A DNA stretch of 64,000 bases from Naegleria gruberi (taxonomy: Eukaryota), in NCBI GenBank assembly GCA_000004985.1, contig GG738854.1; one strand, 5' to 3'. Below, in pieces: positions 24-28,405 of this stretch (the stretch's first letter is position 1; each line of letters begins with the position of its first letter). The notes beneath the pieces are model-generated. The model did not search any database. It was not told where the DNA came from and saw only the letters and a program-made list of their open reading frames with translations. A program made the position numbers and the translations under genes.

Positions 24-2615
24 ATGTTAATTATTACTTTTGTGAAGGTGGTTGACATTTCTGATTGTACTGTTGAAAGATTAGGTTCTCAATGGCTTTA
101 TGTCTCTTCAACAGTTGATATAATTTTGATGCGTTTAATTGTTAATGATTGCAAATTGAAGGGCAATTTAGTCTATCTCACTTCTACAAACAAGGTTTTT
201 ATTAAGAACTCTCTTTTTAAAGACATTACTGGAACTGTGGTTAATATGGCAAATATTGTAACTTTGGAGTTGAAAAATTCGACTTTCCATTCGTGCCATA
301 GTAGAATACACGAATCGATTGTGATACTGAACACTAATGAAGTATTTTCAGCTAGTGCAACTAATGAAAAATCGATTATTTGGGGATCAAGATTTATCAA
401 GTGTTCAGGGTCCAGGGGAGGAGCAATCTTCTTGAGTTCTTTTTATAAGGTTGATATTAACAGGTGTGAATTCATAGCAAATAGTGCACCAAGTGGGAGT
501 GCAATATACTCGGATAGTAGAAGGGGAATGATTTATACAGCTACAGGGCTGGAACCTACCATCTCCATCTTTCATTCACTATTTCAAGAGAATGGAGACC
601 CAACTTTTGGGTCAACATCCTCTGGAGGAGCCATTCACGTTAAGGGAAGCATATATATTGAACAATGTACATTTATTGCCAATTATGCTGTTAAGGGTGG
701 TGTAATTTATATTGACAAATCAGATTCCACCTTTTACTTTAGTCAATACGAACAAAAGTTAGCAGTATTGGTTGCTAGAAGTGAATTTCAGAATAACACA
801 GCAAATTTTGGAGAAATTTCCTTCACTGAACTACCTGATCCATCACTAATCTATTTCAAAACCAATATTGTTGTATTTAATCCAACTTCTCTGGGATCAC
901 CTTGTACCAAGCTAATTATTGATAATACGCAATCTGAACGAGGAAATGTTTACAATGGAACATTAATGGTTTACATGGGAGAGAATGTGAATATAAACAT
1001 GATTGCTTCTAATTTATACGGATACATATTCCCAAAACCATACACAATTATTGGAATTAGGACTCCTGGATCTTCCAAGATATTTGTCAAAACATTAGAT
1101 GATGAAGATCATGTTGAAAATCAAACATTTAACAAATCCTTCTCACTCTATTCACATTATGAAATTTCCTCTCATGAAGATTTGGAGATTTTCATTTCTT
1201 ATGATAAGGTTCATATATCACTCAACTTGATTGTAACACCTTGTCCATTATTCTACAAGTGGGAATCTCCTGTTTGTGTTAATATTTTCTACTTGATTCC
1301 AACTGTTGCTTCAGTCACTTTGTTGACGATAGTTATTGGACTTGTAGCAATTGTTGCTTGTTGTATTGCAAGAAACAAGACAAAGAGATGGAATAGTCGA
1401 AAGAAGGCAGAAAGAATAATGGAACAAGCTCTACTTGATAAAAGAGTTATCTTTGAGGAAGATGAAGAGTCTAGCTCATGTAATTTGAATCGACCTTTCA
1501 TAATCTCAGCAGAAGATATTGTAATTGTAAAGAAAATTGGTGAGGGAGGTGCTGCTAATGTTTTCCTTGCTAAATGGAAAGGTCAAGAAGTTGCCATTAA
1601 AACTCTTAAAGAATGTTTCAGAGGAGACAATGAGGTTTTGGAAACAGAAGCTGCCTTGATTAGTAGTTTCCTTCATCCGAATGTGATTAGATTTTGGGGA
1701 TTTTGTGCCTCATCCTCTCAGAAATACATGGTCATGGAGTATATGAAAGGAGGAAGTTTGGAGAATCTGATTCAGAGTTGTAAAATTGGAAAGGAAAAGT
1801 TGTCCCTCTATGAAAAGCTTCAAATTCTGATTGGGGTAGCTAAAGGAATGGCTTATCTGCATGGCTTGAAACCATGTTGTGTTCACCGTGACTTGAAACC
1901 TGGAAATATTCTGTTGGATGAAAATCGAATCAGTAAGGTTGGAGATTTTGGTTTATCCAGACTCATTTCAAATACCTATCAGACCAGTTTTACAACGAAT
2001 GTGGGTACTTTATTCTATATGGCACCAGAAAACTTTTCTGATAATACCTTCTCTGAAGATTCATTGGGAATGTCTGGTTTTTCACACACAACCTACCAAA
2101 CTACAAATATGACCAACAATACTCATCATTCCATCCAATCATACTATTCAGAGACAGAGTCAGCAGTAGATCAATCGGCAACTATACAAGAATCAGAGAC
2201 CTCTGAGAAGAAACTATTGAATGCTTCAAAGGTTGATGTTTACAGTTATGCAGTGATTATGTGGTCACTCTTCTTTGAGGAAAGTCCTTATGGAAACTAC
2301 AATACTAAGAAGATGAACTTTTTTGGAGATAGTAATGATAACTTTACTAATTGTTACACTGTTTTACCATTGATTCTTCAAGGTAAGAGACCTACAGTAC
2401 CATTTAATTCTGTTGAGAAGATGAAGAGATGGCTTGATGTGTTTGTACTCCCAAAAGAATTAGGAAAGGACAGAGAACATTTATCTAAAATTGTTTTTAG
2501 ATATCTCAACATGATGAAGCTGTGTTGGCATCCACAGCCAGAAGAGCGTCCACCATTTGATCAAATAGTTCCAGAACTGGAAGATTTAGCTGAGCAACTC
2601 CAATACAATAATTGA
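24..2615 (+). CDS. Receptor-like TKL protein kinase with a Pmp-like parallel beta-helix ectodomain, one TM helix and a cytoplasmic kinase domain. Probably 5'-partial, since there is no signal peptide inside the window. Single exon here.
   Basis: Ectodomain repeats: GGAIFLSS, SGSAIYSD, GGAIHVKGS, GGVIYID with F..N spacing. TM: IPTVASVTLLTIVIGLVAIVACCIA. Kinase motifs: GEGGAANVFLAKWKGQEVAIK, HRDLKPGNILLD, DFGLSRL, GTLFYMAPE. Stop is TGA at 2613-2615. Confidence 0.85.
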   Translation: MLIITFVKVVDISDCTVERLGSQWLYVSSTVDIILMRLIVNDCKLKGNLVYLTSTNKVFIKNSLFKDITGTVVNMANIVTLELKNSTFHSCHSRIHESIVILNTNEVFSASATNEKSIIWGSRFIKCSGSRGGAIFLSSFYKVDINRCEFIANSAPSGSAIYSDSRRGMIYTATGLEPTISIFHSLFQENGDPTFGSTSSGGAIHVKGSIYIEQCTFIANYAVKGGVIYIDKSDSTFYFSQYEQKLAVLVARSEFQNNTANFGEISFTELPDPSLIYFKTNIVVFNPTSLGSPCTKLIIDNTQSERGNVYNGTLMVYMGENVNINMIASNLYGYIFPKPYTIIGIRTPGSSKIFVKTLDDEDHVENQTFNKSFSLYSHYEISSHEDLEIFISYDKVHISLNLIVTPCPLFYKWESPVCVNIFYLIPTVASVTLLTIVIGLVAIVACCIARNKTKRWNSRKKAERIMEQALLDKRVIFEEDEESSSCNLNRPFIISAEDIVIVKKIGEGGAANVFLAKWKGQEVAIKTLKECFRGDNEVLETEAALISSFLHPNVIRFWGFCASSSQKYMVMEYMKGGSLENLIQSCKIGKEKLSLYEKLQILIGVAKGMAYLHGLKPCCVHRDLKPGNILLDENRISKVGDFGLSRLISNTYQTSFTTNVGTLFYMAPENFSDNTFSEDSLGMSGFSHTTYQTTNMTNNTHHSIQSYYSETESAVDQSATIQESETSEKKLLNASKVDVYSYAVIMWSLFFEESPYGNYNTKKMNFFGDSNDNFTNCYTVLPLILQGKRPTVPFNSVEKMKRWLDVFVLPKELGKDREHLSKIVFRYLNMMKLCWHPQPEERPPFDQIVPELEDLAEQLQYNN

Positions 2616-2619
2616 CAAC

Positions 2620-3765
2620 TCAATTGAAATTCCTCCACATTCTCTCCAAGGATCGTTTTTCAATAGCATACGGAACTTCAAGAACTCCTCTCAAAATCTT
2701 TAAAATATCAAGACCCATACTGTAATGAACATAAGTTAACAATAAACTATTGATATTGCACAACTTACAATATTCCAATAATTCCTGCAATTTGGCCTAA
2801 AAGACCTTCCATCGTTGAAGTAACCATTTCAGTAATTACATTAACATTCAATGTTGAATAAGCAACTGAAATTACCACTTCATCTCCATCGAATTGAGTT
2901 AATTCCACGATGGATAACTGAGGATGCCATCTCACTGAATTAATTCCTCCTTCGGTATTTGGTTTTAGTCTATTTGTGATAACCTTTGTCAAGATGAAAT
3001 AATTGTCCACTCCAGAAATTGCATAATTGGTCTCTGCAAATACATTAGGTACTGTTCCAGTTTCGTGAAAAGAAACTTGCAAACCAAATCTTGAATCTCT
3101 ATTTTCAGGAACAAAAGGGACATGAAAATAGAATGAAATAGTTCCTGCATATCCAATATCAGTAGCTTAAATTGTGAATGAGATTTTTCCTTGCTCGTTA
3201 ATCACTTACCATTCAAAAGTGATTGGCTCACATTATTGAATACATAACAATTGAACAATTGACCATTCTGAAAAAGCACAACTCTATCATAATGAGGATC
3301 CAAATTTTCCACAATTCCCAATGTAGAATTCACTTTCGTTGCAAACTTTAACGTTAAATTACAATAATCACAATCCAACATTGCATTCCAGTTACAAACA
3401 GTAATAGCTGGAAACGGTAAAGGAACTGACTCGATAAATGTTGTGGCTGTTGTTGGATTACTAATACTCTGCACAAATTGTTCGGAAGAGTCAACAATAT
3501 ACCATATACACATTGCTGTTGCTATGAACCACCCAATGCATGTTATTGCTCTGCTCACCTTAGTGTACATCCATGTTTTCTTCTTCTTTTTCCTCCGTTC
3601 TTGAAGTGTTTGCTGTATTTGCTGAATTTGCCTCACTTGTTCCATTCTGATTTCGGAATCCTGCACTCCATCATCACACACAGGACCTACTTGAACCTGA
3701 ATCCCAGACAACGTCTCGAACGTTGTAGAATTGGAACATTTCTCCTCCTCATTGTTTGTTGCCAT
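2620..3765 (-). CDS. DEG/ENaC/ASIC-like cation channel subunit, short form of about 350 aa, in 3 exons: 3765..3210, 3165..2769, 2719..2620.
   Basis: TM1 is ITCIGWFIATAMCIWYIV, followed by the post-M1 motif FPAITVCNWN (compare ENaC FPAVTICTLN). The pre-M2/M2 region EGLLGQIAGIIGIFMGLDILKILRGVLEVPYAIEK resembles ASIC [30 protein letters not shown]. Introns are 3166..3209 (GTAAGT...TTTAAG) and 2720..2768 (GTAAGT...TTACAG). The stop at 2620-2622 lies 5 bp from the stop of the convergent kinase gene. Confidence 0.7.
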
Positions 3766-3928
3766 TTTTTTTATTAAGGTTTTTGCATTTCCTTTAGCAG
3801 CTTTTTTAGTAGGTTTGGAAAGTTCATTGTCGGAATTGGTTATTGATTCAATAGTGATTGCAAGATGCTATTTTCTTATATTTGACTTGAAAGATTTGGT
3901 TGATATCTATTTCAATATTTGAGATGGT

Positions 3929-4948
3929 TAATTAAAGTTATCCCAAACTCTTCGTATTGACCGATGTTTCACAGAATAGGGAATTACAAGAATTCCTCTT
4001 AGAAATTTCAATACATCCAATCCCATACTATCAACAAGCAAAAATTACAAAGCCAACTCTTAATAATAAACTTACAAAATTCCAACCATGCCAGCAATTT
4101 GCCCTAACAACCTTCAACGAAGTTGTGTAAATTTCTGAAATTTGTCTCAAATTCATAGAAGCATAAGCTACCGAAATAACAATGATATCATCATGTGTAT
4201 CGGTGAGTTCTATAAAGGACAATACTGATTCCCAACGAACCGAATGTAAGCCATCTTCTTTCGTTGGTTTCAATCTTGTGGTTAACACTTTTGTAACAGA
4301 AAAGAAATTGTCTACATTTGGAATGGCAAAGTTTGTCTCTGAAAAAACATTTGGCACAGTTCCAATCTCATGAAATGAAATTTGCAGACCGAATCTTCCA
4401 TCCAAACTCTGGGGCACGAGAGGGAGCTTAAAGTAGAATGTTAAAGTTCCAGAATATCCAACATCCTTTGCTGTTTCGAATGAGAATTATCCGCATAAAT
4501 TCAAATACGAACCTTCAACAGGATTCATCGACCTATTATTAAATACTAAACATTGAAATGGCTGTTCGTGCTGAACTACCACCTTACTATCATATTCCAT
4601 TGTGTAATTCTCCACAAAACCAGTTTCACTATTCACTCTCGTCAAGTGTTCCAAAGAAAGGGAGCAAAACTCACAATCATGCAAAGCATTCCAATTACAA
4701 ACAGTCATTGCAGGATAATATAAAGGAACCGAATCAACATAGGATGTTGCTGTGGTCGGATTTTCAAGTGCCGAGATGAAATTCGTTATTATATGAATAG
4801 GCAATATAAAATCCACAAACTCCCATCGCCACAATCCATCCAGCCATTGTGATTAATTCTCCAAAGTGAGGCAATCTGATACTCCAGTTTTTCCTTAATT
4901 GTGTCCATTTACTTTTATTAAGGGTGCCCTGCAAATTGGTATTATTTC
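3929..4948 (-). pseudogene. Tandem paralogue of the DEG/ENaC-like gene with the same 3-exon layout, but with apparent frameshifts. Probably a pseudogene, or an assembly indel error.
   Basis: The conserved blocks are spread over three reading frames at the 5' end: MDTIKEKLEYQIASLWRINHN, then GWIVAMGVCGFYIAYSYNNEF, then ISALENPTTATSYVDSVPLYYPAMTVCNWN. Exon 2 ends ...GAAGGTTGTTAGGGCAAATTG where the intact copy has GAAGGTCTTTTAGGCCAAATTG. That is a 1-nt deletion, which puts a TAG in the conserved frame. Exon 3 (FMGLDVLKFLRGILVIPYSVKHRSIRRVWDNFN*) is intact but out of phase with exon 2. Confidence 0.6.
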
Positions 4949-5340
4949 CTATTGTCTGATGATTAAGTTGATGATGATGATTATTATTGAATAATTTTCG
5001 TGATGATGAAGATGACGACCATGATGATGATGATTGATGATGTGATGAGGTGCCTTCTTTGGCGACCTTCCAACCTCTATATAAACACTATCTGAACTGA
5101 GAATCGACTTGTCTCTTCTTGGAAACGAAGTGTGCATTTTTTTGAGTGTTGTTAAGGGAAGTTTGAATACGGATTTGGAGTTCCATAGCCATAACTGAAA
5201 CATTGTTGTAGAAAGAAAATTCATTTCTTGGGTTATGATATATTGGTGAAGATGAATTGGAGGGTTGCTGCTTATTCCAGATGTCTACAACCAGCACACT
5301 ATGGAAAGAATATAAAAGAATAATTTTTTAAATATGCGAA

Positions 5341-5425
5341 GCTCATATAGCTCAGTGGTAGAGCATTTGTCTTATGAGAACTTAAGGTTAGCAGATGGCC
5401 GAGGGTTCGACCCCCTCTATGAGCA
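5341..5425 (+). tRNA. Intron-containing tRNA with a canonical cloverleaf. The anticodon loop is CUUAUG|A, giving anticodon UAU, which suggests tRNA-Ile(UAU). Position 37 is G, which is unusual. The intron is about 13 nt, located 3' of position 37.
   Basis: Acceptor stem GCTCATA pairs with TATGAGC, with discriminator A. D arm is GCTC-AGTGGTA-GAGC. Anticodon stem TTTGT/GCAGA has two G-U pairs. T arm is GAGGG-TTCGACC-CCCTC. The variable loop is 5 nt. There are 36 nt between the D arm and T arm where 22-23 are expected, so the extra is an intron. Confidence 0.6.
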
Positions 5426-5781
5426 GTTCAAATTTTTTGCTTTTTAGTAGTGTTAAAGATTTATTAGAAGATTTCAATTCCAATTAATTAGCTCCAATCT
5501 TTTGTAGAGAATAAGAAATCTTTACGAGGTTGTTTTTGAGAATACTTTCTCTTGACTACCATGGAATGCGAATCTCTTTGATTCCACTTCATACTGGTAA
5601 CCTGAATATTGTCCAACTTGTTTTTAAGTGGTTTGTCAGATACGTGGTGTAAATAGGGTTCGTCCTGGCCAAATGACTTTCCAGATGAAGATCTGCCAGA
5701 AGAGCTCCAAGGAGACAATTGTCCAAAACGAAAGCTTTGTAAAGAGATTAGGTTAGGTAATATAAAGCAAAAAATTTGAAC

Positions 5782-5866
5782 TGCTCATAGAGGGGGTCGA
5801 ACCCTCGGCCATCTGCTAACCTTAAGTTCTCATAAGACAAATGCTCTACCACTGAGCTATATGAGC
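5782..5866 (-). tRNA. Second, identical copy of the intron-containing tRNA (UAU anticodon), convergent with the first copy.
   Basis: This is the exact reverse complement of 5341..5425. It lies inside a perfect inverted repeat of about 140 bp. Confidence 0.6.
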
Positions 5867-6059
5867 TTCGCATATTTAAAAAATTATTCTTTTATATTCT
5901 TACCCATTCAACTTTTCTTGTCTCTTTATGGTTTGATGCTACATTTCAGAACCAACATTCATTCCTTTCTGGCCAGAATAAAAATTTAGAAAGATTATTT
6001 GATGAAATTGTTTACAAATTTAATGTAATCATCAATTTGTTCGTTTCAAAACAAAAAAA

Positions 6060-17503: not shown

Positions 17504-20500
17504 ATGTATCGAATGGGTTTATTTGAATGCCTTCAGTTGTTGATTGTTTGTTGTTTGACATTGGCAATGATAAGTTGTTCTAATGCCCAGACCAGATCAG
17601 TTGATTACAAAATAACAACACTTGCTGGAGGATTGTATGGAGAAGGAGTGAGAGCAACAAATGTTGGTATTAATGGACCGTTTGGTGTTTATTCATCATC
17701 TCTTTCTGGTGGGAACGTTTATTACACAGATGTTTCATATGGGCAAGTGAGATTTGTTGATTCGAATGGAATTTCACATCTTGTTGCTGGCTCACCAACT
17801 TATCATACAGGAACAGCCACAGATAGCTTGACTTTTGCAAATGATACCTTGAACATGCCACACAGTATTTCGTTCAATTCGAATGGAGAGATGTTTATTG
17901 CAGAGTACAACGCAACAAGGATTAGAAAGGTTTATTACAATTCAACTATTGGAGATTACAGTATGATTACTGTTGCTGGAGGTGGTTCTTCTCTTAGCAG
18001 TAACATTTCAGCTCTCAATGCCAAGTTCTCTCAACCTCGATGTGTTGTTGTTTCGCCAAATAATGAAGTTTACATTTGTGATACAGGTAATTACATGATC
18101 AGAAAGATTGTGAATGGTGTTGTGTATAATATTGTTGGAAATGGACAGCAGGGATCAAGTACTGATGGCACTCTTGCTGTCAATGCCAAAGTTTCTCTGG
18201 TATTGAGTGTTGCCTTTCATCCAGTGAGTGGTGAATTGTTCTTTTCTGATTATTCCAATAATGCAATCAAGTATGTCATGAATAATGGCAGCATTTTCAC
18301 ATATGCAACATCTAGTGGCCCTTATGGAATTGCTTTCGACTCGAGTGGCGATAATTTATATGTGGCAGAGTATGGATCTAACAAGATTGTTAAATTCACT
18401 AATGGTGTTAGATCTGTAATTGTCAATACTTTGGGCACAAAAAGTTTCAGTGGAGATGGTGGTAGTTCTTTGAGTGCAACCATCAATCTTCCTGCTGGTA
18501 TTGCACTGAATGGAAATAATCTCTACTTTGCTGATACTGCCAACAATCGTATTAGAGTGGTCAATTTACAAACCAGTATTGTGAATACTATTGCAGGTGA
18601 TGGAACTGCAAGATTCCTTGGAGCTTACTCTGGATCAAGATCAGATGTTTCATTATTTAGACCAGAGACAACATTTTACAATTCACAGACTGATGAGTTG
18701 CTGGTGGCCGACACCCTCAATCATCGCGTAGTTAGAATCAACTCACTGACAAATATCAATACATCCCCAATTGAATCTATTGCTGGTTATACTGGTATTG
18801 CTAGCAATGATGTTGCAGGCAAGTTGGGAAATCAAACCTATCTCAATTATCCATACTCTGTAGCTCAATCAGAAACTAGTGGTGATGTCTATTTTGGAAC
18901 CACTAATTTTGTTTACAAATGGGGAAAGAAAGATCAAAAGATTACACTCATTGCTGGATCGAGTAGTACATTGGCAGGCGATAATTATCTTGCTGTTGGT
19001 TCACAATTATATCAACCAGCTGGTATGGCCTTTGCTTCAAATGGAGATTTATATTTTTGTGATTCTAATAATCATGCTATTAGAAAGATTGATACTCAAG
19101 GTGTGATTACAACACTAACTGGAAATGGAACAGCAGGATTCCAAGATGGTGATGCTGCAAGTGCACTTTTCAATAGTCCAGCTAGTATTGCCTTATTACC
19201 AAATGGCGATTTTCTAGTTGCTGATTTTACCAATTCTAGAATTAGAAAATATGTTGCCAGTACCAAACAAGTTGTTACTATTGCTGGTAATTCAACTCTT
19301 GGTTTCTATGGAGATAATGGACTGGCTTCAAAGGCACTTCTAAACAAACCTACAGGTGTTTTCTATAATTCCACATCAGGTGATATTTTGATTGCTGATT
19401 ATTTCAATTTCAGAATTAGAAAAATTTCCAATAATACAGGAATTATTACAACCATTGCTGGATCTGGTTCAACCAGCTACAATGGAGATGGATTGGCAGC
19501 AACATCTACAAGTATGGCTCCATACGGATTGGCAGTAAATCCAATTAGTGGGGAGCTGTTCTTTACTGATAATGCCAACTTTCTTGTTAGAAGAATTGAT
19601 GCCAGCTCTAAGGTTCACACAGTAATTGGTGTTGCTAAAAGTACAATTTTCAATGTAACCAGTTTGGCCAATTCAACTGGTTTATCTTCAATTTCGTTCT
19701 TGACATTTTCACCAAGTGGTGATCTTTATGTTTCTTGCTTTGGACAACATGTCATCAAAAAGATGAGTTATGGTAGCGATATTGTTTATAATGTAGCTGG
19801 TACAGGAAATACAGATTTGAATGGAGATGGATTGGAAGCAACATTGACCAATCTTTATCAACCAATTGCTGTAGCTTACTCTCCTACTTCCAGTGAATTA
19901 TACTTTTCTGATTATTTACATGATAGAGTGAGAAAAATAACCTCTTCAGGATTGGTTGAAACAGTTGCAGGAGGTTTAGGTGATAAGGGATTGGCTGTTA
20001 ATGCAAAAATCAGAGGTGTTTCATCAATATTACTGGTAGACAATGATTTATATATCTCTGATGCATTCAATTATAGAATTCGTAAAATTTCCCTCTCAAC
20101 TGGTATTATTGATTCCATTGTTGGAGCATCATATGCATCTATTTACAATGGAGATAACTTGGCCAATCAAACCAATATTAACTATGTATGGGATCTGAGA
20201 ATTCAAAACGGTGAACTTGTATTTGCTGACATGAACAATAACTTAATTAGGAAAACAAGTTTATCTGGTAAAGGAAAGGTAACAACCATTGCTGGTATGG
20301 GTACAAACAATGCTTCGATTATTATCGATAATGTCAAGGCAACAAGTGCCTATTTGAAAAACCCTGGTTCTGTTGCATTCTTACCAACTGGTGATATGAT
20401 TATTGCAGAGACAGAAGGTCATATCATTAGAAAGGTTGATTTGAATGGCAATATTTCACTCATTGCTGGATCATTCTTCCAACCAGGTTTCAATGGTGAC

Positions 20501-21535
20501 TTGTCAGATTCAAAGAATTCTTTATTGTATCAACCAACAGGACTTTCTATTTTACAGGATGGTAGAATCATCTTCTCAGACTTTGGAAACAATAGAGTGA
20601 GAATGTTAACACCATATTGTAAGGATGAAAAGTATTATTTGACTCAATCTTCACAAGGTATTGTCTGCAACATTACTTCATGTTATGGACTCGCCTACAA
20701 TGATGCAAAAGTTTGTTCAGGAAATGGAATTTGTTCATCATTGAATAACTGCAGCTGCTCAAGTGGATATTCTGGAAACGATTGCTCAACTGCTGATATT
20801 TGTTCTGTCTTGTCAAGCTCATATGTTTGTACAACAACGTCTCTCAACACAACTGAAACTCAAGTTACAACAGTTCAAAATGTCACTCAATTGGATTCGA
20901 AAACTATCGAGTTCTCATCTACAAGTACTGTCACTGTTTCACTGCCATCAACAATTTCACAATACTTGACAAGTGTTGATTCAACATTGAAGAATGACAC
21001 TGTTACTGTTGTCAGTTCTGTTTCATCAGCAAGCAAAGTAACAGAAACTTCTGAGGTTATTTCACCAGTCATCTCAATTGTTCTTGTCAAGTCAAGTTCT
21101 AATCAAAAAATTTCTGTCCAAAATCTCGAAGAACCAATTTCATTATATTTCAATAAGGTCAACATGACTGTTTCGAATATTGAAACCTTGAATGTAACTT
21201 GTATGTATTATGATGAAAGTGAAAAGGTATGGAAATCGGATGGGGTTGAAAGTGAAATTACAGAGATTATTCTCCACAACCTTGCTGATGGAAATGTTAC
21301 CTTGACAATTTCACTTACATGCAAGACTTTCCATTTAACTTCATTTGGAATCATTGATCAAAACTACAAGAAGGCAACTACTAACTCTAATACTGACGAT
21401 TCCACAATCTTGACAGATTACACAGTTTTAATAGGTGCCATTGTTGGTGGTGTTGGTGGATGTTGTGTTATTGCCACAATTATTACACTCATCATTGTTG
21501 TCATTATCTTTGTAAGAAGAAGAGGAAAGAAATAA
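17504..21535 (+). CDS. Large type-I membrane protein of 1343 aa: signal peptide, about 15 or more NHL repeats, an EGF-like Cys module, a Ser/Thr-rich stalk, a TM helix and a short RRRGKK tail.
   Basis: Signal peptide MYRMGLFECLQLLIVCCLTLAMISCSNA. NHL motifs: NNAIKYV, NNRIRVV, NHRVVRI, NHAIRKI, NSRIRKY, NFRIRKI, NYRIRKI, NNRVRML. EGF-like: CSGNGICSSLNNCSCSSGYSGNDCS. TM: IGAIVGGVGGCCVIATIITLIIVVIIFV. Confidence 0.85.
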   Translation: MYRMGLFECLQLLIVCCLTLAMISCSNAQTRSVDYKITTLAGGLYGEGVRATNVGINGPFGVYSSSLSGGNVYYTDVSYGQVRFVDSNGISHLVAGSPTYHTGTATDSLTFANDTLNMPHSISFNSNGEMFIAEYNATRIRKVYYNSTIGDYSMITVAGGGSSLSSNISALNAKFSQPRCVVVSPNNEVYICDTGNYMIRKIVNGVVYNIVGNGQQGSSTDGTLAVNAKVSLVLSVAFHPVSGELFFSDYSNNAIKYVMNNGSIFTYATSSGPYGIAFDSSGDNLYVAEYGSNKIVKFTNGVRSVIVNTLGTKSFSGDGGSSLSATINLPAGIALNGNNLYFADTANNRIRVVNLQTSIVNTIAGDGTARFLGAYSGSRSDVSLFRPETTFYNSQTDELLVADTLNHRVVRINSLTNINTSPIESIAGYTGIASNDVAGKLGNQTYLNYPYSVAQSETSGDVYFGTTNFVYKWGKKDQKITLIAGSSSTLAGDNYLAVGSQLYQPAGMAFASNGDLYFCDSNNHAIRKIDTQGVITTLTGNGTAGFQDGDAASALFNSPASIALLPNGDFLVADFTNSRIRKYVASTKQVVTIAGNSTLGFYGDNGLASKALLNKPTGVFYNSTSGDILIADYFNFRIRKISNNTGIITTIAGSGSTSYNGDGLAATSTSMAPYGLAVNPISGELFFTDNANFLVRRIDASSKVHTVIGVAKSTIFNVTSLANSTGLSSISFLTFSPSGDLYVSCFGQHVIKKMSYGSDIVYNVAGTGNTDLNGDGLEATLTNLYQPIAVAYSPTSSELYFSDYLHDRVRKITSSGLVETVAGGLGDKGLAVNAKIRGVSSILLVDNDLYISDAFNYRIRKISLSTGIIDSIVGASYASIYNGDNLANQTNINYVWDLRIQNGELVFADMNNNLIRKTSLSGKGKVTTIAGMGTNNASIIIDNVKATSAYLKNPGSVAFLPTGDMIIAETEGHIIRKVDLNGNISLIAGSFFQPGFNGDLSDSKNSLLYQPTGLSILQDGRIIFSDFGNNRVRMLTPYCKDEKYYLTQSSQGIVCNITSCYGLAYNDAKVCSGNGICSSLNNCSCSSGYSGNDCSTADICSVLSSSYVCTTTSLNTTETQVTTVQNVTQLDSKTIEFSSTSTVTVSLPSTISQYLTSVDSTLKNDTVTVVSSVSSASKVTETSEVISPVISIVLVKSSSNQKISVQNLEEPISLYFNKVNMTVSNIETLNVTCMYYDESEKVWKSDGVESEITEIILHNLADGNVTLTISLTCKTFHLTSFGIIDQNYKKATTNSNTDDSTILTDYTVLIGAIVGGVGGCCVIATIITLIIVVIIFVRRRGKK

Positions 21536-28332: not shown

Positions 28333-28405
28333 CGCCCCACGTGGGGCTCGAACCCACGACCGTTGGATTAAAAGTCCAACGCTCTACCGACTGAGCTAGC
28401 GGGGC
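28333..28405 (-). tRNA. tRNA-Lys(UUU).
   Basis: GCCCCGC-TA-GCTC-AGTCGGTA-GAGC-G-TTGGA-CTTTTAA-TCCAA-CGGTC-GTGGG-TTCGAGC-CCCAC-GTGGGGC-G. All stems pair, with one G-U pair in the acceptor stem. The ORF 28028..28423 translates this tRNA and is spurious. Confidence 0.9.

What the first reader, a model, noticed from the sequence alone, without database searches (positions are those of the whole stretch)
2620..4948. Tandem DEG/ENaC-like channel genes in a protist, one intact and one decayed; the intact copy's 3' end abuts a convergent kinase gene
Gene A (2620..3765) has TM1, the FPAITVCNWN post-M1 motif, a compact Cys-containing ectodomain, and an ASIC-like pre-M2/M2 (LLGQIAGIIGIFMGLDIL...EVPYAIEK). 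Gene B, immediately downstream, has the same 3-exon plan but needs two +1 shifts in exon 1 and a 1-nt deletion at the end of exon 2. So it is a decaying duplicate, or an assembly with indel errors. DEG/ENaC channels outside animals are rare and have been reported in only a few protists, so an intact short-form member is of interest. Gene A's stop at 2620 lies 5 bp from the stop (2615) of the convergent kinase gene, so the 3' UTRs must overlap.
Basis: partly seen in the sequence, partly recalled or inferred. Interest (0 to 1): 0.65.

Follow-up and report, generated by a model that had tools for sequence, protein, structure and literature searches.

The report
Two minimal ENaC-like channel genes, Naegleria
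The window (Naegleria gruberi) carries two adjacent genes for a stripped-down, about 350-residue relative of animal ENaC/ASIC ion channels; one is intact and one is broken by frameshifts, the public annotation wrongly fuses them, and their family links ENaC/ASIC channels to the proton-activated chloride channel PAC by sequence.

Summary
On the minus strand, gene A (3765..2620, three exons, GT-AG introns of 44 and 49 nt) encodes a 350-aa protein. It passes Pfam ASC/PF00858 (45.8 bits, cut-off 23.6). Gene B (about 5137/5087..3928) lies upstream of A on the same strand and has the same intron positions. It is interrupted by one extra base at 4778 and one at 4111, and has no in-frame ATG before TM1.

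The organism is Naegleria gruberi. The public model XP_002680378.1 (492 aa) is a chimera of B and A that lacks the end of M2. A and B are sister paralogues: 52% identical, dN/dS about 0.25. B was therefore constrained for most of its history and is most likely a recent pseudogene.

N. gruberi has at least 9 such loci. The family has 215 cluster representatives across protists and metagenomes, so it is not rare.

Profile comparison joins the family to long DEG/ENaC (99.6%) and to PAC (92%). Long DEG/ENaC against PAC gives 1.7%.

The parts
3210..3765 (-). Gene A exon 1 (ATG 3765). Encodes a disordered, Lys-rich N-terminus, TM1 (coding 3493-3549), the post-M1 motif FPAITVCNWN (3385-3414), CDYC and the first beta strands.
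   Evidence: The ORF starts at the first ATG after an upstream stop.
3166..3209 (-). Gene A intron 1, 44 nt, GTAAGT..AG, phase 1.
   Evidence: Removing it restores the frame and continuity with orthologues (..LLN|ATDIGYAG..).
2769..3165 (-). Gene A exon 2. Encodes the beta core (GYAGTIS, RDSRFGLQVSFHETGTVPNVFAETNYA, VVISVAY) and the pre-M2 LLGQIAGIIGI.
2720..2768 (-). Gene A intron 2, 49 nt, GTAAGT..AG, phase 2. It has an in-frame TAA at the donor, which is where the public model stops.
2620..2719 (-). Gene A exon 3. Encodes the lower M2 (MGLDILKILRGVLEV; GLD at 2707-2715) and the conserved C-terminus PYAIEKRSLERMWRNFN. Stop TGA at 2622-2620.
4779..5087 (-). Gene B exon 1, first reading frame. 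Encodes a His/Asn-rich N-terminus and TM1 (ITMAGWIVAMGVCGFYIAYSYNNEF). No ATG in this frame before TM1.
4778..4778 (-). Gene B frame break 1. One extra base (C) sits between ..NNEF and ISALENPTTAT..
4513..4777 (-). Gene B exon 1, second reading frame (ISALENPTTATSYVDSVPLYYPAMTVCNWN ... NPVE).
4471..4512 (-). Gene B intron 1, 42 nt, GTTCGT..AG. Same position and phase as in A.
4112..4470 (-). Gene B exon 2 up to ..TTSLK.
4111..4111 (-). Gene B frame break 2. One extra base, or a 2-nt deletion relative to A, immediately before LLGQIAGMVGI.
4076..4110 (-). Gene B end of exon 2 (LLGQIAGMVGI + TT).
4028..4075 (-). Gene B intron 2, 48 nt, GTAAGT..AG. Same position and phase as in A.
3928..4027 (-). 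Gene B exon 3 (MGLDVLKFLRGILVIPYSVKHRSIRRVWDNFN). Stop TAA at 3930-3928.
5018..5137 (-). Candidate 5' ORF of gene B (MHTSFPRR..HHHHG), in a different frame from TM1. It overlaps a (CAT)n/(TGA)n microsatellite at 5001-5048. It would join the TM1 frame only by a further frameshift or by a speculative 71-nt GTCGTC..AG intron (5019-4949).
   Evidence: the intron is inference only
24..2615 (+). Convergent neighbour: an 863-aa single-exon receptor-type kinase (beta-helix/PMP-like ectodomain, TM, PK_Tyr_Ser-Thr domain). Its stop TGA at 2613-2615 lies 4 bp from gene A's stop.

Best explanation
The region holds a head-to-tail pair of paralogous genes on the minus strand of Naegleria gruberi. They encode 'core-only' members of the DEG/ENaC (Pfam ASC) superfamily.

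Gene A is intact and encodes 350 aa. It has a disordered cytosolic N-terminus ending in a Lys run, then TM1, then an ectodomain of about 200 residues, then pre-M2/M2, then a short conserved cytosolic tail ending W..FN. The ectodomain is N-glycosylatable and consists only of the palm/beta-ball beta core. There is no finger, thumb or knuckle, and only 4 ectodomain Cys.

By homology and fold, it most likely assembles as a trimer with M2 lining a central pore and works as a non-voltage-gated ion channel of the amoeba's surface membrane. This step is inferred.

Its pore signature differs from animal channels. G-L-D replaces G-A-S. K and R occupy the positions of the ASIC pore-lining Thr and Glu. 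The HG gating motif is absent. Na+ selectivity, amiloride block and the gating stimulus therefore cannot be transferred from animal channels. My guess is a cation or poorly selective channel that senses ions, pH or osmotic state; an anion channel is possible.

Gene B is the sister duplicate. It evolved under purifying selection for most of its history and was recently inactivated: two 1-nt frame breaks and loss of an in-frame start. The public gene model XP_002680378.1 is an artefactual fusion of B and A.
For: Gene model and family:
- Gene A splices in frame and passes Pfam ASC at 45.8 bits against a cut-off of 23.6. Repaired B scores E 2.4e-9.
- Proteins of 348-384 aa in N. lovaniensis and N. 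fowleri and in a Logan assembly share the same C-terminus.
- The public 492-aa model maps to B 4708-4067, then A 3696-3208, then A 3166-2768, and ends in intron 2.

Fold:
- AF2 model of orthologue P0002 (about 49-54% identical to A) from a 39-sequence alignment: pLDDT 83.2. It shows TM1, 11 beta strands, no ectodomain helices except one 4-residue turn, then TM2.
- Foldseek: ASIC 1e-13, PAC 5e-13.
- hhalign of the family against long DEG/ENaC: 99.65%, E 4.9e-25, with the two large insertions present only in the long forms.

Pore signature: G 38/39, D 31/39 and K(+3) 31/39 across the family. These align to the G-A-S..T..E of ASIC5.

Gene B:
- A and B are sisters with bootstrap 99-100%; B's branch is about 25% longer.
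- dN 0.42, dS 1.6, ratio about 0.25.
- B changes 3 of 36 family-invariant residues, all conservatively, and has 15 mismatches at >=80%-conserved columns against 7 for A.
- Frame breaks are at 4778 and 4111.
- Twenty uninterrupted ORFs of >=300 aa, about 36.5 kb in total, lie in the same 64-kb window. This argues against a high indel error rate in the assembly.
Against: - No expression, localisation or electrophysiology data exist for any member. Channel function, trimeric state and membrane are inferred from homology.
- The structure model is of an orthologue, not of gene A itself.
- The pore carries D, K and R rings unlike any characterised DEG/ENaC, so it may not conduct the way those channels do.
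- B retains nearly all conserved residues, intact splice sites and a low dN/dS. That fits a functional gene with sequencing or haplotype errors as well as it fits a very young pseudogene.
- The ORF-continuity argument is biased, because only unbroken ORFs are counted.
Confidence: 0.8

Rival explanations
1. Gene B is a functional paralogue. The frame breaks would be sequencing or assembly errors, or belong to one haplotype of a polyploid strain. A and B could then be co-expressed subunits of a heteromeric channel.
For: - dN/dS is about 0.25.
- Only conservative changes occur at invariant positions.
- Both introns keep GT-AG and their positions.
- Adjacent pairs of divergent paralogues recur: NAEGRDRAFT_64420/64421, 64710/64711, the environmental contig L001 (tandem) and L003 (head-to-head). 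This fits paired subunits.
- The N-terminal problem lies in an indel-prone (CAT)n repeat.
Against: - There are two independent single-base breaks within 670 nt, plus no in-frame ATG.
- About 36.5 kb of long ORFs in the same window are unbroken.
- Neither break lies in a long homopolymer.
- No intact B-like sequence was found in the protein collections or in the JGI metagenome contigs.
Confidence: 0.25
2. The single 492-aa public model is right: one gene spans B and A and yields a tandem-domain protein.
For: It is the deposited annotation (XP_002680378.1 / NAEGRDRAFT_64560).
Against: - The model starts inside the post-M1 motif of B (MTVCNWN), so it has no TM1 there.
- It reads through B's frameshift into out-of-frame residues (VVRANCWHGWNF).
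- It skips B's exon 3 and A's first 24 codons.
- It stops at the TAA of A's intron-2 donor, so it lacks the lower M2 and the conserved C-terminus.
- All orthologues are single-unit proteins of 313-398 aa that end ..FN.
Confidence: 0.02
3. The Naegleria genes came from animals by lateral transfer rather than from an ancient eukaryotic family. Studer et al. 2011 raised this alternative (content from my memory of the abstract).
For: DEG/ENaC genes are patchy outside Metazoa (PMC10507113).
Against: - The short-form family is large and diverse: 215 representatives at 50% identity.
- It is multigenic in Naegleria and contains introns.
- It occurs in Heterolobosea, in an amoebozoan transcriptome and in many environmental samples.
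- It is architecturally distinct from every animal form: no HG motif, no finger, thumb or knuckle, and GxD in place of GAS.
- It sits between DEG/ENaC and PAC in profile space.
Confidence: 0.05
4. The proteins keep the fold but are not ion channels, for example a surface receptor or adhesion protein. Alternatively they are anion channels like PAC rather than cation channels.
For: - The HG motif and the G/S-x-S filter are missing.
- K and R replace the ASIC pore-lining T and E.
- The D-x-x-K motif aligns with PAC's (E/D)-F-A-K in TM2.
Against: - The pre-M2/M2 segment is the most conserved part of the family (G 38/39, D 31/39, K 31/39). That is expected of a pore, not of a mere membrane anchor.
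- Every characterised protein with this fold (ASIC, ENaC, FaNaC, PAC) is a trimeric channel (one search hit list).
- In the hhalign alignment, PAC's anion-selectivity lysine has no counterpart in the family. The identity of that lysine as K319 is from my knowledge.
Confidence: 0.2

Closest known systems
Metazoan DEG/ENaC channels (ASIC1, ENaC alpha/beta/gamma, FaNaC, BASIC/ASIC5); Pfam ASC PF00858
   Same: - Two-TM topology.
- Post-M1 FPAxTxCN motif.
- Pre-M2 LLGxxxGxxG with a small residue at the degenerin position.
- Pfam hit above threshold.
- hhalign 99.65%.
   Different: - About 350 aa against 450-700 aa.
- No HG motif before TM1.
- No finger, thumb or knuckle, and none of the thumb's Cys-rich region: 4 ectodomain Cys in gene A.
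- G-L-D instead of G-A-S / G-S-S.
- K and R where ASIC has pore-lining T and E.
- A conserved C-terminal W..FN end.
Proton-activated chloride channel PAC / TMEM206 (Pfam PF15122)
   Same: - Same size class (350 aa).
- A bare beta domain of about 12 strands between two TM helices. PMC7904269 describes this as the core common to PAC, ASIC and ENaC.
- hhalign 92.1%, E 6e-7, over 251 columns from TM1 to TM2.
- HMM hit E 8.6e-11 on TM1 and the HPxxSVSY region.
- D-x-x-K in TM2 aligns with PAC (E/D)-F-A-K.
   Different: - No hit to the TMEM206 Pfam model; all 39 members hit ASC instead.
- The FPAVTICN and LLGDxAG motifs are of the ASIC type.
- The model shows no helix-turn-helix insertion.
- The family has nothing aligned to PAC's selectivity lysine.
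Deg/ENaC homologues reported from other unicellular eukaryotes (Cafeteria, Tunicaraptor, Symbiodinium; Elkhatib et al. 2023, PMC10507113) and the N. gruberi ENaC/degenerin gene of Studer et al. 2011
   Same: They are non-metazoan members of the same superfamily. The Naegleria locus is presumably among those seen in 2011.
   Different: - The 2023 paper reports that the heterokont and filasterean sequences cluster with the metazoan ASIC and ENaC sub-clusters. It does not mention Naegleria or a short form.
- I could not read the 2011 paper, so I cannot say which gene model it used or whether the short architecture was noted.

Membership tests
DEG/ENaC (Pfam ASC, PF00858) | Significant match to the family profile above the curated threshold | tested here: met
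   - Gene A scores 45.8 bits, E 6e-12, against a cut-off of 23.6.
- Repaired B scores 37.2 bits.
- All 39 short-form relatives match.
- hhalign against long HG/Cys-rich DEG/ENaC gives 99.65%.
DEG/ENaC (Pfam ASC, PF00858) | Two TM helices flanking an extracellular loop, with cytosolic N- and C-termini | tested here: met
   - The model of the orthologue has helices 78-110 and 314-349 flanking a beta domain.
- Gene A has TM1 at 73-91 and M2 at about 307-333.
- A KKKKK run precedes TM1.
- Four N-x-S/T sequons lie in the loop.
- The topology itself is inferred.
DEG/ENaC (Pfam ASC, PF00858) | Post-M1 motif FPAVTxCN | tested here: met
   The motif is FPAITVCN in A and YPAMTVCN in B. It aligns to FPAVTFCN of ASIC5.
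DEG/ENaC (Pfam ASC, PF00858) | Palm and beta-ball beta-core fold | tested here: met
DEG/ENaC (Pfam ASC, PF00858) | Conserved His-Gly (HG) gating motif before TM1 | tested here: not met
   The consensus of long forms shows TIHGxP. Gene A has ..KKKKKTWMYTKVSRAITC.., and no short-form member aligned has HG there.
DEG/ENaC (Pfam ASC, PF00858) | Peripheral finger, thumb and knuckle domains with conserved Cys-rich regions | tested here: not met
   - The ectodomain has no helices apart from one 4-residue turn.
- hhalign shows the finger and thumb regions as insertions present only in the long forms.
- Gene A has 4 ectodomain Cys; the long-form alignment has about 10 invariant Cys.
DEG/ENaC (Pfam ASC, PF00858) | G/S-x-S selectivity-filter motif in M2 | tested here: not met
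   The motif is G-L-D in both A and B. Across the family, D occupies that position in 31/39 members and S in 1/39. It aligns to the G-A-S of ASIC5.
DEG/ENaC (Pfam ASC, PF00858) | Pre-M2 LLxxxGGxxGL with a small residue at the degenerin position | tested here: met
   LLGQIAGIIGIF in A aligns with LLADLGGQLGLF of ASIC5. Which residue is the degenerin position is from my knowledge.
DEG/ENaC (Pfam ASC, PF00858) | Trimeric, amiloride-sensitive, Na+-preferring channel activity | not testable with these tools
   This needs expression and electrophysiology, or a multimer structure.
PAC / TMEM206 (PF15122) | Match to the family profile | tested here: not met
   No PF15122 hit for gene A at E<=10, nor for any of the 39 relatives at E<=1.
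PAC / TMEM206 (PF15122) | Superfamily-level homology (profile-profile and fold) | tested here: met
   - hhalign 92.1%, E 6.1e-7, over 251 columns.
- HMM hits to PAC chains at E 8.6e-11.
- Control: long DEG/ENaC against PAC gives 1.7%.
PAC / TMEM206 (PF15122) | TM2 lysine that confers anion selectivity | tested here: not met
   In the hhalign alignment the PAC 'LFK' lysine faces a gap or Met in the short-form family. The role of that lysine is from my knowledge.
Processed or unprocessed pseudogene (gene B) | Frame disruption inside conserved coding sequence | tested here: met
   Extra bases at 4778 and 4111, and no in-frame ATG before TM1.
Processed or unprocessed pseudogene (gene B) | Relaxed selection (dN/dS near 1, loss of invariant residues) | tested here: not met
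   dN/dS is about 0.25 against A. Three of 36 invariant positions are changed, all conservatively. This fits only a recent inactivation.
Processed or unprocessed pseudogene (gene B) | Disruptions confirmed in independent reads; no intact transcript | not testable with these tools
   No read or RNA-seq data were available. No second copy of the locus was found.

The most novel reading that the evidence does not exclude
Genes A and B belong to a large, undescribed protist branch of 'core-only' channels: two TM helices plus the bare palm/beta-ball, with pore signature G-[LI]-D-x-x-K. This branch is the missing sequence link between the DEG/ENaC family and the proton-activated chloride channel PAC/TMEM206. 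If so, the resemblance of PAC to ASIC/ENaC reflects divergence from a common, pre-metazoan minimal trimeric channel. Published work calls it 'structural convergence' without discernible sequence homology. On this reading, animal DEG/ENaCs arose by inserting finger and thumb domains into such a core.
Probability: 0.5. Interest if true: 0.75.

Novelty: new variant of a known kind. Interest (0 to 1): 0.5.

Why it matters
1. The public N. gruberi model for this locus is a chimera. It lacks a proper TM1 at its start and a complete M2, so any comparative or functional work based on it would be misled. The corrected 350-aa protein is directly clonable.

2. A natural channel reduced to the beta core and two helices is a minimal scaffold. 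It could show which parts of DEG/ENaC gating and selectivity reside in the core and which in the animal-specific finger and thumb.

3. The D/K(/R) pore signature predicts a selectivity different from Na+-selective animal channels, and this can be tested.

4. The family gives a statistically supported intermediate between DEG/ENaC and PAC. This bears on the open question of whether these cation and anion channels are homologous, and on whether DEG/ENaC originated before animals.

5. N. fowleri, the brain-eating amoeba, has orthologues (P0005). These are surface-exposed proteins with no close human counterpart.

Tried and rejected
I used orthologue P0002 as the first row and gave the window's exons as separate rows.
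- A first AF2 run with an 11-row alignment gave pLDDT 52 and was discarded.
- The search for homologous proteins missed most paralogues. It returned 6 hits with gene A and 12 with a profile. The exhaustive HMM search was needed.
- Searching JGI metagenome contigs for close relatives of B found none.
- An exact look-up of A's exon-1 ORF in other assemblies found none.
- The afdb50 fold library was unavailable.
- Studer et al. 2011 could not be read.
- A hypothetical 71-nt intron (5019-4949, GTCGTC..AG) would join ATG 5137 to B's TM1 frame. I did not adopt it: the donor is weak, the sequence is a coding-like CAT repeat, A has no counterpart, and the chance of a compatible frame is 1 in 3.
- Programmed +1 frameshifting in B is rejected. 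It would need two separate sites; the second (AAG-G) offers no re-pairing; and neither site has a stop or a rare codon in the A site.
- An 8-nt 'intron' at 4111 is too short to be real.
- Intron positions in N. lovaniensis P0004 differ from those in A and B, so they could not be used to validate A's junctions. Continuity of homology across the junctions was used instead.
Full report
**What is in the sequence**

Both genes lie on the minus strand. Gene A starts at the ATG at 3765, which is the first start codon after an upstream stop. It has three exons: 3765-3210, 3165-2769 and 2719-2620. The two introns are 44 and 49 nt and both run GTAAGT..AG. Removing them gives an uninterrupted 350-codon reading frame that ends at TGA 2622-2620.

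The convergent + strand ORF 24..2615 encodes an 863-aa receptor-type kinase. It has a beta-helix/PMP-like ectodomain, a TM segment and a PK_Tyr_Ser-Thr domain at E 6e-49. Its stop codon (2613-2615) is 4 bp from gene A's stop. Any ordinary 3' UTR on either transcript would therefore run into the other gene. This is inference; there are no transcript data.

**Identity of gene A**

Gene A passes the Pfam ASC (PF00858) gathering threshold: 45.8 bits against 23.6, E 6e-12. It also matches the pre-M2/M2 of solved ASIC1 chains and of a thermoreceptor DEG/ENaC.

A database search shows that the window is Naegleria gruberi. The deposited protein for this locus is XP_002680378.1 / EFC47634.1 / NAEGRDRAFT_64560, 492 aa. 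It is a chimera, built as follows:
- It begins at the Met inside gene B's post-M1 motif (MTVCNWN).
- It runs through B's exons 1-2 and reads through B's second frameshift into VVRANCWHGWNF.
- It jumps from about 4067 to 3696, inside gene A.
- It stops at the TAA that forms part of A's intron-2 donor, ending ..IAGIIGIL.

The chimera therefore lacks the lower half of M2 and the conserved C-terminus. In contrast, N. lovaniensis (348 and 384 aa), N. fowleri (350 aa) and a Logan assembly (360 aa) encode single-unit proteins. These are collinear with my gene A model across both splice junctions and end ..PYA..KS.R.IW.NFN.

**Gene B**

B has introns at the same two positions and phases as A: 4512-4471 (GTTCGT..AG) and 4075-4028 (GTAAGT..AG). 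Its stop is TAA 3930-3928.

Its coding sequence is broken twice:
- One extra base at 4778, between TM1 (..CGFYIAYSYNNEF) and ISALENPTTAT.
- One extra base at 4111 (or a 2-nt deletion relative to A), immediately before LLGQIAGMVGI.

In addition, the TM1 frame is open from 5087 but contains no ATG before TM1. The nearest ATG (5137) is in another frame, and a (CAT)n microsatellite at 5001-5048 lies between them.

After repair, B still hits ASC at E 2.4e-9. A and B are 52% identical over 300 residues. They are each other's closest relatives (NJ bootstrap 99-100%), and B's branch is about 25% longer. Nei-Gojobori estimates are dN 0.42 and dS 1.6 (saturated), a ratio of about 0.25. B changes only 3 of 36 positions that are invariant in ten relatives, all conservatively. 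At columns conserved at >=80%, B has 15 mismatches against 7 for A.

B was therefore a constrained, functional gene for nearly all of the time since the duplication. The disruptions are recent, or they are errors.

I favour a real, young pseudogene at about 0.7. There are two independent indels within 670 nt plus a start-codon problem. The same 64-kb window holds twenty unbroken ORFs of >=300 aa, about 36.5 kb in total. Neither indel lies in a long homopolymer.

I could not find a second copy of the locus to settle the question.

**The family is large, not rare**

An exhaustive profile search of 1.84 billion representative proteins gave 215 hits at E<1e-3, 95 at E<1e-10 and 45 at E<1e-30. Most of the strong hits are 300-400 aa and cover the whole profile. 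Proteins of 450-700 aa matched only the TM1/post-M1 and pre-M2/M2 regions, at E 1e-8 to 1e-5.

N. gruberi alone has at least nine loci:
- A and B.
- NAEGRDRAFT_66414.
- 64420 and 64421, adjacent to each other.
- 62132.
- 81362, a 1563-aa model that looks like another fusion.
- 64710 and 64711, adjacent to each other.

Only A and B lie in this window.

Members also occur in Willaertia magna, in the amoebozoan Ceratiomyxa fruticulosa, and in TARA, JGI, ENA and Logan environmental assemblies. Adjacent pairs recur: a tandem pair on JGI contig L001 and a head-to-head pair on ENA contig L003. The N. lovaniensis orthologue P0004 stands alone.

**Architecture**

With a 39-sequence alignment, AlphaFold2 gave a confident model of orthologue P0002: mean pLDDT 83.2, with the core above 90. 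The model runs as follows:
- A disordered N-terminus.
- A long TM1 helix.
- Eleven beta strands, with no ectodomain helix other than one four-residue turn.
- A long TM2 helix.
- A short C-terminal helix.

Profile-profile alignment to long, HG-motif-bearing, Cys-rich DEG/ENaC proteins gives 99.65% (E 4.9e-25) over 273 columns. The long forms carry two big insertions, corresponding to the finger and to the Cys-rich thumb.

The Naegleria proteins are thus the palm/beta-ball core plus the two helices. Deng et al. call this the common core of PAC, ASIC and ENaC (PMC7904269).

**Pore and gating residues**

The pre-M2 and upper M2 are of the ASIC type: LLGQIAGIIGIF in gene A against LLADLGGQLGLF in ASIC5.

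The filter is not. G-A-S is replaced by G-L-D. Three and six residues further on, where ASIC5 has T and E, gene A has K and R.

Across 39 diverse family members these positions are conserved as follows: G in 38, D in 31 (E in 2), K(+3) in 31 and R(+6) in 18.

The HG motif before TM1, which is visible in the consensus of the long forms (TIHGxP), is absent.

Properties of animal channels that depend on these residues (Na+ selectivity, amiloride block, HG-dependent gating) should therefore not be assumed. The strong conservation of this segment argues that it is a functional pore. A ring of Asp with a ring of Lys one helical turn below could set a different selectivity, or could act as a salt-bridged gate. 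This last point is speculation.

**A link to PAC/TMEM206**

The family HMM hits PAC chains at E 8.6e-11, over TM1 and the following strand: family ..sPstsvsyee..efP against PAC ..HPVMSVSYKEV..DAP, with bias 0.0.

I built a 13-species vertebrate PAC alignment and compared profiles, with these results:

| Comparison | Probability | E-value | Columns |
|---|---|---|---|
| Short forms vs PAC | 92.1% | 6.1e-7 | 251, from TM1 to the end of TM2 |
| Short forms vs long DEG/ENaC | 99.65% | 4.9e-25 | 273 |
| Long DEG/ENaC vs PAC (control) | 1.7% | 0.029 | 26 |

In the short-form/PAC alignment, G-L-D-x-x-K falls on PAC A-A-(E/D)-F-A-K. No short form hits the TMEM206 Pfam model, and all of them hit ASC.

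The short forms are thus members of the ASC family that act as an intermediate sequence between two families. [quoted passage not shown]

This goes beyond the finding I was given. It rests on modest alignments (39, 19 and 13 rows), so I rate it at about 0.5.

**What was already known**

From my memory of its abstract, Studer et al. 2011 (Physiol Genomics 43:844, PMID 21558422) reported an ENaC/degenerin gene in N. gruberi. They discussed vertical inheritance against lateral transfer. The reference is confirmed to exist, but the paper is not held.

Elkhatib et al. 2023 (PMC10507113) report Deg/ENaC homologues in heterokonts and in Tunicaraptor, and do not mention Naegleria. A 2013 survey states that pathogenic protozoa lack DEG/ENaC (PMC3681921).

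In the held library I found no description of the following:
- the short core-only architecture;
- the G-x-D..K signature;
- the multigene family in Naegleria;
- the chimeric model at this locus;
- a sequence link to PAC.

Absence from that library is not proof of novelty.

**Verdict**

The tandem pair with one decayed copy is ordinary genome biology.

What lifts the interest is that these genes are representatives of a minimal variant of the DEG/ENaC fold. That variant is widespread in protists, has a distinctive pore, and may bridge to PAC. The public model of this locus also needs correcting.

Noticed in passing
window 5303-5449 (+) and 5758-5904 (-): There are two identical tRNA-Ile(UAU) genes (5341-5425 + and 5782-5866 -). 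Each has a 13-nt intron after the anticodon. They are convergently oriented inside a 147-nt inverted repeat that is 98% complementary, with 308 nt between the arms, about 200 nt upstream of gene B. ARAGORN in default mode called them 'tRNA-???'; intron mode resolves them.
   Followed up: partly
window 24-2615 (+): This is an 863-aa single-exon receptor-type kinase. It has an N-terminal right-handed beta-helix / Chlamydia-PMP-like repeat ectodomain, one TM segment and a cytosolic Tyr/Ser-Thr kinase domain. It converges on gene A with 4 bp between the stop codons.
   Followed up: partly
window 17504-21535 (+); protein P0012 (XP_002672040.1, 1563 aa): The N-terminal 670 residues of the N. gruberi model P0012 match, repeatedly, the 1343-aa ORF at 17.5-21.5 kb of this window at 25-29% identity. 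P0012's C-terminal 250 residues are a short-form ASC unit. P0012 is therefore probably another fused gene model, with a repeat protein joined to a separate channel gene.
   Followed up: no
N. gruberi loci NAEGRDRAFT_64420/64421 and 64710/64711; L001 3674-6147; L003 415-3249: Short-form ASC genes repeatedly occur as adjacent pairs of divergent paralogues. There are two more pairs in N. gruberi, a tandem pair on a JGI metagenome contig and a head-to-head pair 100 bp apart on an ENA contig. This may hint at co-regulated heteromeric subunits.
   Followed up: partly
alignments A3, A5, A6 (family level, not window coordinates): The short-form family profile aligns with vertebrate PAC/TMEM206 at 92% hhalign probability across the full length. 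Long DEG/ENaC proteins do not (1.7%). The family is thus an intermediate-sequence bridge between two channel families that the literature regards as unrelated in sequence.
   Followed up: yes
window 5001-5048: An imperfect (CAT)n/(TGA)n trinucleotide repeat has 16 copies, 78% matches and 8% indels. It would encode a His-rich stretch in gene B's putative N-terminus. It is a likely hotspot for the frame problem at B's 5' end.
   Followed up: partly
window 2623-2673 (gene A C-terminus) and family alignment: The extreme C-terminus is strongly conserved across the family. Proteins end ..W/Y..FN or ..FNG right at the stop codon. This suggests a C-terminal recognition motif for trafficking or scaffolding, with no counterpart that I know of in animal DEG/ENaC.
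   Followed up: no
L002 8001-9294 (N. lovaniensis P0004 gene): This orthologous-family gene has three introns at positions different from the two shared by A and B. Only the last is near A's intron 2, offset by about one codon. Intron turnover in this family therefore appears to be fast.
   Followed up: partly
window 28333-28405 (-): A tRNA-Lys(UUU) gene.
   Followed up: no
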